Position numbers: made by a program | Shown here: piece by piece, positions 52,044-55,000 of the stretch | Position numbering within the stretch: the first letter of the stretch is position 1 | Layout: the number at the start of each line of letters is the position of its first letter | From: Escherichia coli | GTDB lineage: Bacteria; Pseudomonadota; Gammaproteobacteria; Enterobacterales; Enterobacteriaceae | Strand: one strand, 5' to 3' | DNA length: 64,000 bases | Assembly: GCF_041886205.1 (NCBI RefSeq) | Contig: NZ_CP169029.1

Positions 52044-55000
52044 TAAATAAACGGGAGGCGAAGGTGCCTCCCGTTTTTAGATTGTTTTCAATTGATTGAT
52101 AATGAAAGGATTCGCTTGCAAAAGCAGGAGCAATTTTCGAGGTGCTCCGGTAGGTTGACGGCGTTTGGTTTCCCAGCTTTTGACCAGGTCATAACTTACC
52201 CCAACGGCGACAGCAAAATCTTGCTGACGTAAACCCGTTGCTTCACGGATCGCTTTTACATCGATCTCGCTAAAAGTATGGACGTGCTCTGGTTCAGGCG
52301 TTTCTTCACCCTTTTCGATGCGTACCATTTCTTCTGCGCTGGCAAGAAGATCAGCAAATAATTCATCTTTCATCTGTTTTCAATGTCTCCGTTGGCATTT
52401 CGACCATGGTGGAATTTGTGGAGCTTCAACATTAAAGCAGCTTCTCGGACAATAGTTTCAATGCCTTTCTTTGTTCTTCTGTTAAATCATCCTGTTCATT
52501 TTTAGGATAAATCAACGCCAGATAAATTCGGCCATTGCGTGTTACGTTGTAATAAATTATCCGAATGCCACCCCGTTTCCCCATTCCAGAACGGTTCCAG
52601 CGAATTTTTCTAAAACTGCCTGTGCCTGCGATAATGTCACCGGCAGTGGGATCTTGAATGAGTAGTTCCTGAAAAATCCGGAACTCATCATCAGGTAGCA
52701 ATAACTGGCGGCGTTTGCTAAATCCTTGTAGTTCAATAAAGGTGAACATAATGCATCCTGCGGTCTATTGATAATTATAAGTGTACCGTGTACATATTGG
52801 TAGCTAATTAGATATAAAAAAACCCCTTATCCGTTTGGATAAGGGGTCAATGAGATATCAGCTGATTACAGCTTCGGACCAGCCGCTACCAGCGCGGCAC
52901 CCGCAGGGGTGTCGGTGTATTTATCGAAGTTGTCGATAAACAGTTTCGCCAGGGTTTCGGCTTTTTCCTGCCACTGTTCCGGGGAAGCGTAGGTGTTACG
53001 CGGATCGAGAATCTTCGTGTCTACGCCCGGCAGTTCGGTTGGGATCGCCAGGTTAAACATCGGCAGAGTGAAAGTTTCTGCGTTATCCAGCGAACCGTTG
53101 AGGATGGCGTCGATAATAGCGCGGGTATCTTTAATCGAGATACGTTTTCCAGTGCCGTTCCAGCCGGTGTTAACCAGATACGCCTGCGCACCTGCCGCTT
53201 GCATACGTTTTACCAGCACTTCTGCGTACTGAGTTGGGTGCAGCGACAGGAACGCCGCGCCGAAGCAAGCGGAGAAGGTTGGCGTCGGTTCGGTGATGCC
53301 ACGCTCAGTACCGGCCAGTTTGGCGGTGAAGCCAGAGAGGAAGTGATACTGGGTTTGATCGGCAGTCAGGCGAGAAACCGGCGGCAACACGCCGAAAGCA
53401 TCAGCAGTCAGGAAGATAACCTTAGTCGCGTGGCCCGCTTTGGAAACCGGCTTAACGATGTTATCGATGTGATAGATCGGATAAGAAACGCGGGTGTTCT
53501 CGGTTTTTGAACCATCATCAAAGTCGATAGTGCCATCTTCACGCACGGTGACGTTTTCCAGCAGCGCATCGCGACGGATAGCGTTGTAGATTTCAGGTTC
53601 CGCTTCTTTCGACAGCTTGATGGTTTTCGCGTAGCAGCCGCCTTCGAAGTTAAACACACCGTCATCGTCCCAGCCGTGTTCGTCATCGCCAATCAGGCGA
53701 CGTTTCGGGTCGGTGGAAAGGGTGGTTTTACCAGTGCCGGAAAGGCCGAAGAACACCGCAACATCGCCTTTCTCGCCAACGTTGGCGGAGCAGTGCATAG
53801 AAGCGATACCTTTCAGCGGCAGCAGGTAGTTCATCATCGAGAACATCCCTTTCTTCATTTCGCCGCCGTACCAGGTGCCGCCAATCAGCTGCATGCGCTC
53901 GGTCAGGTTAAACGCCACGAAGTTTTCGGAGTTCAGCCCCTGTTCTTTCCACTGCGGGTTAGTGCACTTCGCGCCGTTCATAACGATAAAGTCTGGTTTG
54001 AAACCTGCCAGCTCTTCATCGCTCGGGCGAATAAACATGTTTTTGACAAAATGCGCCTGCCAGGCCACTTCGGTGATGAAACGGACGGAAAGACGAGTAT
54101 CCGGGTTCGCACCACAGAAAGCGTCGACAACGAACAGACGTTTGCCGGAAAGCTGCCTGGTCACCAGGCCTTTCAGATGCTGCCAGGTTTCTGGAGAGAG
54201 AGGTTTGTTGTCGTTCTTACCTTTGCCTTTGTCTGCCCACCAGAAAGTATCGCGAGTGGTATCGTCACGGACGATATACTTATCTTTTGGTGAACGACCG
54301 GTGAAGATCCCGGTATCGACGGCAACGGCACCCAGATTAGTTAACACCCCGCGCTCATAACCTGTCAGGCTCGGATCGAGCTCTTCCTGATACAGCAGGT
54401 CGTAGCTTGGGTTGTAAACGATATCATGTACGTCACTGATACCATAAGCCTCGAGTTCTTGCGGGGTCAAACCATTGTTAACGCGCATTTCACTGCTCCT
54501 TAGCCAATATGTATTGCCTGAATAGTAAAGTCTTTTTGGGGGTGTTAACCGCGACAAGGCTCATAGATTTACGTATCTGGAGAAATTCATATTTGACAAA
54601 AAACTCCGTGATTCCTGTCACGAAACGGTTGCTATTATCGCAGAAATAGCATTTTAGGTGTGGAAAATGTTCTCAAAAGGTTAAATCTTGGTTTATATGG
54701 CGGGAATATTGTGAGTGGAATCGCATTCCTGAATGAAATTGATGCAAATTCAACCGGTAAAGTATCGATTCACCACGCTAACTTTTTTTGATTATTTTCT
54801 GAAAAAAGCAAAATACTACTGCCCGGATGCGATAATTAACCCACCTTTTGATTCTGGATAACCAACATGGATAACGTTGAACTTTCACCCGCAACACGCT
54901 GGGGGATGATTGCTACCGGATTACTTCAGGGTCTGGTTTGCTACCTGCTGATCGCCTGGCTTTCCGGAAAAAATCACAGTTGGATTGTTTATGGCGTGCC

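What the first reader, a model, noticed from the sequence alone, without database searches (positions are those of the whole stretch)
52750..52822. Short palindromes in the putative promoter of the HigBA-like pair
Seen in sequence: upstream of the toxin start (52749) the AT-rich region contains GTGTACCGTGTACAT (tandem or inverted GTAC-containing repeats) and a TATAAT-like element (ATAATTATAAGT on the plus strand, read on minus). Type II antitoxins typically autorepress by binding palindromes that overlap their promoter.
Basis: inference. Interest (0 to 1): 0.25.

Follow-up and report, generated by a model that had tools for sequence, protein, structure and literature searches.

The report
Operator palindrome of a HigBA2-type toxin-antitoxin promoter
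The GTAC repeats just upstream of this E. coli toxin-antitoxin pair form a 13-bp palindrome (TGTAC-N3-GTACA) next to an exact TATAAT box; the palindrome is kept in almost every related gene pair in other bacteria, so it is very probably the site where the antitoxin binds to shut off its own promoter, which is an ordinary kind of regulation with a motif not previously described for this subfamily.

Summary
On the minus strand the region reads ...CTACCAATA-TGTAC-ACG-GTACA-CT-TATAAT-...-AGGA-N6-ATG. GTACNNNGTAC occurs once in the 64-kb window, at this site.

The pair is a V. cholerae HigB2/HigA2-type module (RelE/ParE toxin, "NadS" HTH antitoxin). It lies on a cassette between envZ and pckA that about 1,330 of 5,426 complete E. 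coli genomes carry.

Comparative evidence:
- 57 of 58 toxin-upstream regions from homologous loci carry GTAC-N3-GTAC, and 30 carry two copies.
- There are 87 instances against 0.09 expected, with 37 different spacers and no other spacing enriched.
- The motif was never found away from these promoters in about 245 kb.
- In enteric relatives it sits exactly between a TTGAnn -35 and a TAnnnT -10.

Antitoxins with a V. cholerae-like recognition helix use TACGC-N5-GCGTA instead. The geometry matches MqsA's AACCT-N3-AGGTT.

Most likely this is the antitoxin's autorepression operator in the promoter spacer. Binding itself was not tested. The E. coli copy is a trimmed version: one palindrome, a degenerate -35 and a consensus -10.

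A recurrent 7-bp slippage deletion destroys the palindrome in 108 genomes, including CFT073 and Nissle 1917; the ones inspected from that lineage carry a nonsense-mutated toxin.

This is a new member of a known kind, of modest interest.

The parts
52782..52794 (-). Proposed operator: the 13-bp palindrome TGTAC-ACG-GTACA (core GTAC-N3-GTAC 52783-52793; 15-bp R-TGTAC-N3-GTACA-Y form 52781-52795). It lies at about -27 to -15 relative to the predicted start.
   Evidence: Searches show the sequence and that it is unique in the window. Searches show conservation in 57 of 58 homologous promoters, with invariant arms and a variable spacer.
52774..52779 (-). -10 hexamer, exact TATAAT. It occupies the slot that reads TAnnnT in all enteric relatives, 2 nt downstream of the palindrome.
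   Evidence: T, A and final T are invariant columns in alignment A4.
52797..52802 (-). -35 slot, 17 nt upstream of the -10. It reads TACCAA (2/6 match to TTGACA) and is degenerate here; most relatives have TTGAnn.
   Evidence: The consensus promoter scan called nothing on this strand.
52803..52820 (-). A/T-rich stretch (T7 run plus ATATCTAATTAG) upstream of the -35 slot. It is a possible UP-like element and occupies the position where relatives carry the distal palindrome.
   Evidence: The UP-element role is inference only.
52821..52848 (-). Cassette-borne hairpin (12-bp stem) followed by U7. It is the intrinsic terminator of pckA and insulates the toxin-antitoxin promoter from pckA read-through.
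   Evidence: terminator scan; dG -23.5 kcal/mol, z -6.2. It is absent from the empty site.
52756..52759 (-). Shine-Dalgarno AGGA, 6 nt before the toxin ATG. The predicted transcription start is about 52766-52768.
   Evidence: CAGG(G)A is conserved in relatives. The start site is inferred from the -10 position and has not been mapped.
52432..52749 (-). Toxin gene, 105 aa, HigB2-type RelE/ParE mRNA interferase. The catalytic residues are retained: K48 R50 R63 Y81 K83.
52077..52373 (-). Antitoxin gene, 98 aa, HigA2/'NadS' type. It has an N-terminal toxin-binding segment and a C-terminal HTH-XRE domain with recognition helix at residues 61-68 (YDLVKSWE).
52046..52076 (.). envZ terminator hairpin, read in both directions. 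It also closes the toxin-antitoxin operon, and the antitoxin stop codon (52077-52079) abuts its T/A tract.
   Evidence: dG -20.8 kcal/mol on the - strand.

Best explanation
The 13-bp palindrome TGTAC-ACG-GTACA (52782-52794, - strand) is the operator of the toxin-antitoxin promoter. A dimer of the HTH antitoxin, alone or bridged by toxin, binds it with one recognition helix per half-site. The likely contact residues are D62, K65, S66 and R71. Because the site fills the spacer between the -35 slot and the exact TATAAT, and a bound dimer's footprint would reach over the -10, bound antitoxin should exclude RNA polymerase and autorepress the toxin-antitoxin operon. The transcription unit is insulated by two hairpins: a cassette-borne pckA terminator upstream and the envZ terminator downstream. 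The E. coli (pck-envZ) copy is a trimmed version of the family promoter, having lost the distal palindrome and the TTGAnn -35 and carrying a consensus -10 instead. Shown here: the sequence, its uniqueness in the window, its conservation and fixed promoter position across the family, the helix/operator correlation, and the homology and fold of the proteins. Inferred: that the antitoxin is the binding protein, that binding represses, and where transcription starts.
For: 1. The motif is unique in the window (1 site, 0.20 expected).
2. 57 of 58 toxin-upstream regions from homologous loci contain GTAC-N3-GTAC, and 30 contain two copies. There are 87 instances against a mean of 0.09 in 1,000 shuffles (maximum 2). 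Of spacings 0-12, only N3 is enriched. The instances have 37 distinct spacers.
3. The only 16 further occurrences in about 245 kb of flanking DNA are at promoters of degraded or orphan copies of the same module.
4. In 18 enteric promoters with 57% mean column identity, nearly all invariant columns are the proximal GTAC...GTACA, the T-A...T of the -10, an SD G and the ATG. The palindrome sits exactly between TTGAnn and TAnnnT with a 17-nt spacer.
5. Arms are invariant while the spacer is free, with no arm covariation. That is the signature of sequence-specific protein recognition rather than a nucleic-acid hairpin.
6. Recognition helix and operator change together. All antitoxins with the S-x-[DE]-x-x-[KR]-S-W-E...RR helix (41-100% identical overall) use GTAC-N3-GTAC. 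A. baumannii HigA2, whose helix is like V. cholerae's (R-T-L-Q/E-N-W-E-Q-G-R), has TACGC-N5-aCGTA, like the footprinted V. cholerae operator TGTACGC-N5-GCGTACA. Three of the four V. cholerae base-contact residues differ here: R68->D62, E71->K65, N72->S66, with R77=R71.
7. Characterised relatives autorepress. V. cholerae HigA2 has a footprint, a crystal structure with operator and a reporter assay, with the operator running from after the -35 over the -10 (PMC11006873). A. baumannii HigA2 has a reporter assay (PMC5906591). C. burnetii AntitoxP has an EMSA (PMC10098735).
8. The antitoxin model (pLDDT 87.5) best matches HigA2, including the HigB2-HigA2-operator complex 8a0x, and the MqsA C-terminal domain. 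MqsA binds AACCT-N3-AGGTT, present in two copies in its promoter (PMC4894380), which is the same arm/spacer geometry.
Against: No binding, repression or start-site data exist for this protein or this subfamily, and I found no paper on it. The E. coli copy has a very poor -35 (TACCAA), and the consensus scan calls no promoter on this strand, so promoter strength is uncertain. The homologous loci were retrieved with a peptide pattern taken from the recognition helix. They therefore all share that helix, and the contrast group with a different operator is small: V. cholerae from the literature and two Acinetobacter plasmids. The loci are phylogenetically related, so the counts are not independent events, although flanks and spacers have diverged to near randomness. 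108 E. coli genomes lack an intact palindrome, which shows the site is dispensable at least where the toxin is dead.
Confidence: 0.85

Rival explanations
1. The palindrome is a relic. It was the family's operator, but in the pck-envZ copy of E. coli the promoter is crippled (no -35, no distal site), so the element no longer controls meaningful transcription.
For: The -35 slot reads TACCAA, and no promoter is called on this strand by the consensus scan. The distal palindrome is lost. Many lineages show decay of the module: orphan antitoxins, truncated toxins, and a toxin nonsense allele in 107 E. coli genomes.
Against: The -10 is a perfect TATAAT in E. coli and Citrobacter, and TATACT in Kluyvera. 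That looks like compensation for the lost -35 rather than decay. In the six E. coli alleles aligned, the only change within the palindrome is the 7-bp deletion, and the -10 is unchanged. The toxin keeps all five catalytic residues and the antitoxin is highly conserved.
Confidence: 0.08
2. The site is bound by a different protein, for example YefM-YoeB, whose operators have a TGTACA core, or a host regulator. It would not be bound by the cognate antitoxin.
For: The window site contains TGTACA (52789-52794). I recall from Kedzierska et al. 2007 that YefM-YoeB operators are paired palindromes with a 5'-TGTACA-3' core; that paper only appeared here in the reference list of PMC5906591. One retrieved paper links GTAC with YefM-YoeB operator terms (PMC7544224, title and abstract only).
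Against: In relatives the base after the left TGTAC is any of A, C, G or T, so TGTACA is not the conserved unit; GTAC-N3-GTAC is. The motif travels with this toxin-antitoxin family across genera and genomic contexts and changes when the antitoxin's recognition helix changes. That ties it to the cognate antitoxin.
Confidence: 0.04
3. The element serves the mobility or structure of the cassette, for example as a recombination site or cruciform, rather than transcription control.
For: The pair sits on an indel-polymorphic cassette. V. cholerae higBA2 is a superintegron cassette (my recollection of Christensen-Dalsgaard and Gerdes 2006; not checked here).
Against: The palindrome lies about 60 bp inside the cassette boundary, not at it. 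Its distance to the -35 and -10 elements is fixed to the nucleotide in enteric relatives. Arms of 4-5 bp with a 3-nt loop are too short for a stable cruciform. Copies in unrelated genomic contexts keep it at the promoter only.
Confidence: 0.02
4. The palindromes are chance features of AT-rich intergenic DNA.
For: Several other 6-bp palindromes occur in the same 70 bp. One GTACNNNGTAC somewhere in 64 kb is not in itself rare: 19 of 100 shuffles had at least one.
Against: 87 instances against 0.09 expected in homologous promoters, exclusive N3 spacing and fixed promoter position.
Confidence: 0.01

Closest known systems
Vibrio cholerae higBA2 operator and HigA2 repressor (PMC11006873; PDB 8a0w/8a0x, 5jaa, 5j9i)
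   Same: The protein family is homologous: toxin E=5e-24, antitoxin profile E=4e-9, and best fold matches. The toxin gene comes first. The antitoxin has an N-terminal toxin-binding segment and a C-terminal HTH-XRE dimer. The operator is an inverted repeat placed after the -35 and reaching the -10. When both sites are aligned on the dyad, each is a roughly 15-bp site spanning +/-7.
   Different: The operator sequences differ: TGTACGC-N5-GCGTACA (core TACGC-N5-GCGTA) against TGTAC-N3-GTACA, with every position from +/-7 to +/-2 different. Three of the four base-contact residues differ. Many relatives of the E. coli type have two operators, whereas V. cholerae has a single one. Antitoxin identity is only about 26-30%.
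E. coli MqsA and the mqsRA promoter palindromes (PMC4894380)
   Same: The operators have 5-bp arms with a 3-nt spacer (AACCT-N3-AGGTT). There are two copies about 30 bp apart in the promoter, as in the enteric relatives here (30-bp start-to-start). The toxin gene comes first. The C-terminal HTH domain is homologous (NCBIfam MqsA model E=1.7e-7; profile alignment 41-95 to 76-130; 3fmy TMt 0.78).
   Different: MqsA has an N-terminal zinc-binding (CxxC) domain, and its toxin MqsR belongs to a different toxin family. The half-site sequence is unrelated. The window copy has only one palindrome.
Acinetobacter baumannii plasmid HigBA2 (PMC5906591)
   Same: The antitoxin is 37% identical, with the same gene order. 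Autorepression by the antitoxin, enhanced by toxin, was shown with a reporter.
   Different: Its recognition helix is of the V. cholerae type. Its promoter carries TACGC-CATTG-ACGTA rather than GTAC-N3-GTAC. The genes overlap instead of being 58 nt apart.
Coxiella burnetii ToxP/AntitoxP (PMC10098735)
   Same: It is a HigB2/HigA2 homologue. The antitoxin and the complex bind their own promoter in EMSA.
   Different: It is a distant, plasmid-borne homologue. The operator sequence was not found in the passages I searched.
YefM-YoeB operators (TGTACA-core palindromes)
   Same: A GTAC-containing palindrome in a toxin-antitoxin promoter. The window site happens to contain TGTACA.
   Different: The antitoxin fold is unrelated (Phd/YefM). 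The conserved unit here is GTAC-N3-GTAC, not TGTACA.

Membership tests
HigB2/HigA2 (V. cholerae-type) type II toxin-antitoxin module | The toxin is a HigB2-like RelE/ParE-fold mRNA interferase with the catalytic set K49 R51 R64 Y82 K84. | tested here: met
   phmmer E=5e-24 against PDB HigB2 over residues 3-100. Pfam RelE PF06296 scores 27.1 bits against a cut-off of 27. The aligned residues K48 R50 R63 Y81 K83 are all conserved.
HigB2/HigA2 (V. cholerae-type) type II toxin-antitoxin module | The antitoxin has an N-terminal toxin-binding segment and a C-terminal five-helix HTH-XRE dimerisation and DNA-binding domain. | tested here: met
   Profile E=3.8e-9 against 5j9i/5jaa over nearly the full length. 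NCBIfam NadS equivalog scores 75.1 bits against a cut-off of 60. The AF2 model has pLDDT 87.5. Foldseek best hits are 5jaa, 8a0x and 5j9i (TMt 0.84, rmsd 1.9 A). Disorder of the N-terminal part was not tested; the model shows a helix at residues 2-20.
HigB2/HigA2 (V. cholerae-type) type II toxin-antitoxin module | Reverse gene order (toxin upstream of antitoxin) in one operon. | tested here: met
   Toxin 52432-52749 and antitoxin 52077-52373 are both on the - strand. Co-transcription is inferred: no promoter-like site was called in the 58-nt gap.
HigB2/HigA2 (V. cholerae-type) type II toxin-antitoxin module | An inverted-repeat operator within the core promoter. | tested here: met
   TGTAC-N3-GTACA lies at -27..-15 between the -35 slot and TATAAT. 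The sequence differs from the V. cholerae operator.
HigB2/HigA2 (V. cholerae-type) type II toxin-antitoxin module | The antitoxin binds the operator and represses transcription; the toxin is neutralised by the antitoxin. | not testable with these tools
   These were shown only for V. cholerae, A. baumannii and C. burnetii relatives.
MqsR/MqsA module | The antitoxin has an N-terminal zinc-binding domain (two CxxC pairs). | tested here: not met
   The 98-aa antitoxin contains no cysteine (sequence). The NCBIfam MqsA model matches only its C-terminal half (profile 63-126) at 31.1 bits against a cut-off of 61.8.
MqsR/MqsA module | The operator is a palindrome with 5-bp arms and a 3-nt spacer, present twice in the promoter. 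| tested here: inconclusive
   The arm/spacer geometry is met. Two copies are found in 30 of 58 relatives but only one in the window. The half-site sequence is different. This is a resemblance in mechanism, not membership.
Sigma-70 promoter | -35 and -10 hexamers with a 16-18-nt spacer. | tested here: inconclusive
   The -10 is an exact TATAAT. The -35 slot matches TTGACA at 2/6. The consensus scan reports nothing on this strand. Relatives have TTGAnn-N17-TAnnnT. The start site is not mapped.

The most novel reading that the evidence does not exclude
In the E. coli copy the operator happens to be also a perfect 7-nt tandem repeat (GTACACG x2), which makes it a slippage-prone switch. Loss of one unit has occurred at least twice: in the CFT073/Nissle lineage, and independently in strain FCI1 on another haplotype. 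The deletion abolishes autoregulation and changes promoter spacing. That could drive toxin inactivation and leave a conserved orphan antitoxin, which may then act as a free-standing regulator of other sites, as has been claimed for MqsA. This would give a mechanistic route from toxin-antitoxin module to domesticated transcription factor.
Probability: 0.1. Interest if true: 0.5.

Novelty: new member of a known kind. Interest (0 to 1): 0.3.

Why it matters
The result gives a precise, testable operator (TGTAC-N3-GTACA) for a widespread but unstudied enterobacterial and marine branch of the HigBA2/'NadS' toxin-antitoxin family. About a quarter of complete E. coli genomes carry the pair, including O104:H4, IAI39 and APEC strains.

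The result also supplies a natural specificity pair. Recognition-helix positions D62/K65/S66 go with RTGTAC half-sites, while V. cholerae R68/E71/N72 go with TACGC half-sites. This could be used to study how HTH-XRE antitoxins re-target.

Finally, common laboratory and probiotic strains (CFT073, Nissle 1917, ABU83972, ATCC 25922, E2348/69) carry a natural operator deletion. CFT073 and Nissle 1917 were confirmed to have a dead toxin and an intact antitoxin.

None of this changes the general picture of type II toxin-antitoxin autoregulation.

Tried and rejected
- **Direct-repeat reading.** GTACAC-G-GTACAC is true for E. coli, but relatives have any base after the left GTAC, so only the inverted reading is conserved.
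- **28-bp imperfect palindrome.** CGGTCTATTGATAATT/AATTATAAGTGTACCG (52761-52788, 75% complementary) would overlap the -10, but it is not conserved in Citrobacter, Kluyvera or other relatives. I treat it as chance.
- **Other 6-bp palindromes** in the interval are not conserved.
- **V. cholerae-type operator.** TACGC-N5-GCGTA is absent from the E. coli promoter (sequence).
- **Consensus promoter scan.** It calls nothing on the - strand because the -35 is poor, so the promoter was placed by homology instead.
- **Literature searches.** Searches for 'NadS', for envZ/pckA toxin-antitoxin, and for GTAC operators of HigA found nothing on this subfamily.
- **Salmonella SehAB.** I checked it as a possible characterised homologue. 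SehB is a larger two-domain HigA of the K-12 type, which is not this family.
- **Apparent geometric conflict with V. cholerae.** GTAC arms are 9 nt apart there and 3 nt apart here. This disappears when both sites are aligned on the dyad, where each is a +/-7 site. The outer TGTAC of the V. cholerae repeat is then a coincidental resemblance; this is inference.
- **Identity bands for counting the deletion allele.** The bands were ambiguous, so I used junction-specific queries instead.
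Full report
**1. What is in the sequence**

The window is Escherichia chromosome. envZ runs on the + strand at 50694-52046. pckA ends on the - strand at 52866. Between them lie two small - strand genes: a 105-aa toxin (52432-52749) and a 98-aa HTH antitoxin (52077-52373).

Read on the coding (-) strand, the 116-bp stretch between the pckA stop and the toxin ATG has these parts in order:
- A 12-bp-stem hairpin followed by U7 (52848..52814; dG -23.5 kcal/mol, z -6.2).
- ATATCTAATTAGC.
- TACCAA (52802..52797).
- TA.
- TGTAC-ACG-GTACA (52794..52782).
- CT.
- TATAAT (52779..52774).
- TATCAATAGACCGC-AGGA-TGCATT-ATG.

The 'TATAAT-like' element is an exact TATAAT.

The GTAC element is both a 7-nt tandem repeat (GTACACG GTACAC) and an inverted repeat (TGTAC-N3-GTACA). 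GTACNNNGTAC occurs once in the 64-kb window, at this site, with 0.20 expected. The 13-mer has no second site even with one mismatch allowed.

**2. What the genes are**

- The toxin matches V. cholerae HigB2 structures at E=5e-24 over residues 3-100.
- The toxin keeps the five catalytic residues listed for HigB2. K49/R51/R64/Y82/K84 (quoted in PMC10098735) correspond to K48/R50/R63/Y81/K83 here.
- The antitoxin passes the NCBIfam 'NadS' equivalog (75 bits against a cut-off of 60).
- A profile of its family hits V. cholerae HigA2 at E=4e-9 over nearly the full length.
- An AlphaFold model (pLDDT 87.5) places the recognition helix at residues 61-68.
- The best PDB fold matches are HigA2, including the HigB2-HigA2-operator complex 8a0x and the C-terminal domain 5j9i (TMt 0.84). 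The MqsA C-terminal domain follows (3fmy, TMt 0.78).

The pair is therefore a HigBA2-type module, not the Rts1 or K-12 HigBA type.

**3. Genomic setting**

The pair is an indel-polymorphic cassette:
- 1,324 of 5,426 complete E. coli genomes hold the whole 831-bp segment, and 1,330 hold the promoter region.
- The remaining genomes have an empty site in which envZ and pckA share one bidirectional terminator.

The cassette runs from just after the envZ hairpin, where the antitoxin stop codon abuts its T-tract, to about 52852. It brings its own hairpin, which now terminates pckA. On the - strand the envZ hairpin (dG -20.8) closes the toxin-antitoxin operon.

The same pck-cassette-envZ arrangement is found in E. 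albertii, Citrobacter, Kluyvera and Pluralibacter.

**4. Comparative test**

I built an alignment of antitoxin homologues and used it to retrieve 80 loci from 100,044 species-representative genomes. I located the toxin gene in each and extracted 130 nt upstream of 58 full-length toxin genes.

Results:
- 57 of the 58 regions contain GTAC-N3-GTAC, and 30 contain two copies.
- There are 87 instances against a mean of 0.09 (maximum 2) in 1,000 shuffles.
- Among spacings 0-12, only N3 is enriched: 87 instances against 0-5 for the others.
- The 87 instances carry 37 different spacers.
- Outside those regions, about 245 kb of flanking DNA holds only 16 more instances. All 16 lie at the promoters of copies whose toxin gene is truncated or lost.

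Invariant arms with a free spacer, and no compensatory change in the arms, indicate sequence-specific protein recognition rather than a hairpin.

**5. Promoter architecture**

In enteric relatives the layout is fixed to the nucleotide:
- a distal palindrome,
- about 8 nt,
- TTGAnn,
- nnT-GTAC-N3-GTAC-Ayn,
- TAnnnT.

This is a 17-nt spacer filled by the proximal palindrome, with the two palindromes 30 bp apart.

In an alignment of 18 such promoters with 57% mean column identity, nearly all of the 17 invariant columns are the proximal GTAC...GTACA, the T-A...T of the -10, an SD G and the ATG (the remaining one is a single T in the upstream part of the alignment). Flanking positions extend the site to R-TGTAC-N3-GTACA-Y.

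In marine Oceanospirillales relatives one palindrome again lies in the spacer, and a second lies over the start region.

The window copy, like the other pck-envZ copies, is a trimmed version. It has one palindrome, and a hairpin plus T-run where relatives have the distal site. The -35 slot is degenerate (TACCAA), and the -10 is a consensus or near-consensus hexamer.

The consensus scan does not call this promoter. Its activity is an inference.

**6. Who binds it**

Direct evidence is lacking for this subfamily. The inference rests on three points.

First, characterised relatives autorepress through the antitoxin.
[quoted passage not shown] A crystal structure shows R68, E71, N72 and R77 reading the bases (PMC11006873).
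- A. baumannii HigA2 represses its promoter in vivo (PMC5906591).
- C. burnetii AntitoxP shifts its promoter (PMC10098735).

Second, recognition helix and operator change together.
- The aligned residues here are D62, K65, S66 and R71.
- Every retrieved antitoxin with the ...S-x-[DE]-x-x-[KR]-S-W-E-x-x-R-R helix uses GTAC-N3-GTAC, across 41-100% overall identity. This includes Klebsiella and E. coli plasmid copies.
- A. baumannii plasmids, whose helix is of the V. cholerae type, carry TACGC-CATTG-ACGTA instead.
- Aligned on the dyad, both operator types span +/-7 and differ at every specified position.

Third, MqsA has a homologous C-terminal domain. By the register, the residues I recall as MqsA's base contacts (N97, R101; not confirmed in the paper I searched) align with D62 and S66. 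MqsA binds AACCT-N3-AGGTT, which is present twice in its promoter (PMC4894380). This is the same arm/spacer geometry.

A caveat applies. The locus search used a peptide pattern from the recognition helix. The retrieved set therefore shares that helix by construction, and the contrast group is small.

**7. Mechanism proposed**

An antitoxin dimer, probably also as a toxin-bridged complex, occupies -27..-15. Its footprint would cover the -10 and block RNA polymerase, giving autorepression. Loss of antitoxin would relieve it.

Where two palindromes exist, their 30-bp spacing (about three helical turns) suggests cooperative or bridged binding. The E. coli copy would lack that. These steps are inferred.

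**8. Natural variants**

Six divergent E. coli alleles were aligned. The only change within the palindrome is a 7-bp deletion that removes one GTACACG unit, giving ...CCAATATGTACAC-TTATAAT; substitutions elsewhere in the region are few.

- A junction-specific query finds the deletion in 108 genomes. CFT073, Nissle 1917, ABU83972, ATCC 25922 and E2348/69 matched the deletion allele over its full length.
- A query for the CFT073 toxin allele, which has E22->stop, finds 107 genomes.
- In CFT073 and Nissle 1917 the antitoxin protein is identical to the window's.
- Strain FCI1 carries the deletion on a different haplotype with a toxin annotated as intact. The deletion has therefore probably arisen at least twice, as expected for slippage between the tandem units.

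The near one-to-one counts largely reflect one clone and are not independent evidence. Overlap of the two sets was not checked genome by genome. They are compatible either with relaxed selection on the operator after toxin death, or with toxin death following loss of autoregulation.

**9. Comparison and verdict**

This works like the V. cholerae HigA2 operator and, in geometry, like the MqsA palindromes.

- It is a member of the HigBA2/'NadS' family by sequence, fold, gene order and operator placement.
- It is not an MqsA, because the antitoxin has no zinc-binding domain and no cysteine.
- I found no paper describing the GTAC-N3-GTAC operator or this E. coli cassette, but absence from the searchable library is not proof.

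The finding is real and well supported as a cis-regulatory element. Its kind is ordinary.

Noticed in passing
window 52780-52793 (one 7-nt unit); loci L083, L084, L093, L094: A 7-bp deletion of one GTACACG unit destroys the palindrome in 108 of about 1,330 cassette-bearing E. coli genomes. Those matching the deletion allele include CFT073, Nissle 1917, ABU83972, ATCC 25922 and E2348/69. A toxin E22->stop allele is found in 107 genomes, while the antitoxin stays intact in the strains inspected. FCI1 has the deletion on another haplotype with an intact toxin, which suggests recurrent slippage.
   Followed up: yes
window 52078-52852: The toxin-antitoxin pair is a presence/absence cassette between envZ and pckA, present in about 24% of complete E. 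coli genomes. The same arrangement occurs in E. albertii, Citrobacter, Kluyvera and Pluralibacter, so the cassette is either old and repeatedly lost, or exchanged through the conserved flanks.
   Followed up: partly
window 52821-52848 and 52046-52079: The cassette carries its own hairpin plus U7, which now terminates pckA. In empty-site strains pckA and envZ share one bidirectional hairpin. The antitoxin stop codon abuts the T-tract of that envZ hairpin, which then also ends the toxin-antitoxin operon.
   Followed up: partly
loci L003-L037 (enteric homologues): Between genera the antitoxin is much better conserved (about 85-95% identity) than the toxin (about 70-82%). Many loci have orphan antitoxins or truncated toxins, including Photorhabdus L023-25 and L029, Sodalis L012, Pluralibacter L031, and L011, L013, L021, L027 and L034. 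Copies with internal toxin deletions keep the palindromes, while those that lost the whole upstream part do not.
   Followed up: partly
window 52374-52431: There is a 58-nt gap between the toxin stop and the antitoxin start, whereas the genes overlap in the Acinetobacter homologues. No promoter-like site was called there, and I did not examine whether it holds a translational or processing signal for the antitoxin.
   Followed up: no
loci L004, L005 (Citrobacter), about 8 nt downstream of the -10: The Citrobacter pck-envZ copies have an extra GTAC just after TATAAT (TATAATTTGTACT / TATAATCTGTACT). This forms GTAC-N11-GTAC with the proximal arm. It is absent in E. coli and its significance is unknown.
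   Followed up: no
V. cholerae operator (literature) compared with window 52782-52794: The V. cholerae operator TGTACGC-N5-GCGTACA also begins and ends with TGTAC/GTACA, but these are 6 bp further apart. On a dyad alignment they fall mostly outside the contacted core, so the resemblance may be coincidental or a trace of a shared ancestor.
   Followed up: partly
plasmid collection hit H21 (NZ_OL790696.1): A 4.8-Mb E. coli record filed among plasmids gives the only 100% hit there. It is evidently a chromosome mislabelled in the collection, so the cassette was not found on true plasmids at high identity. The best plasmid homologues listed are at most about 51% identical.
   Followed up: no
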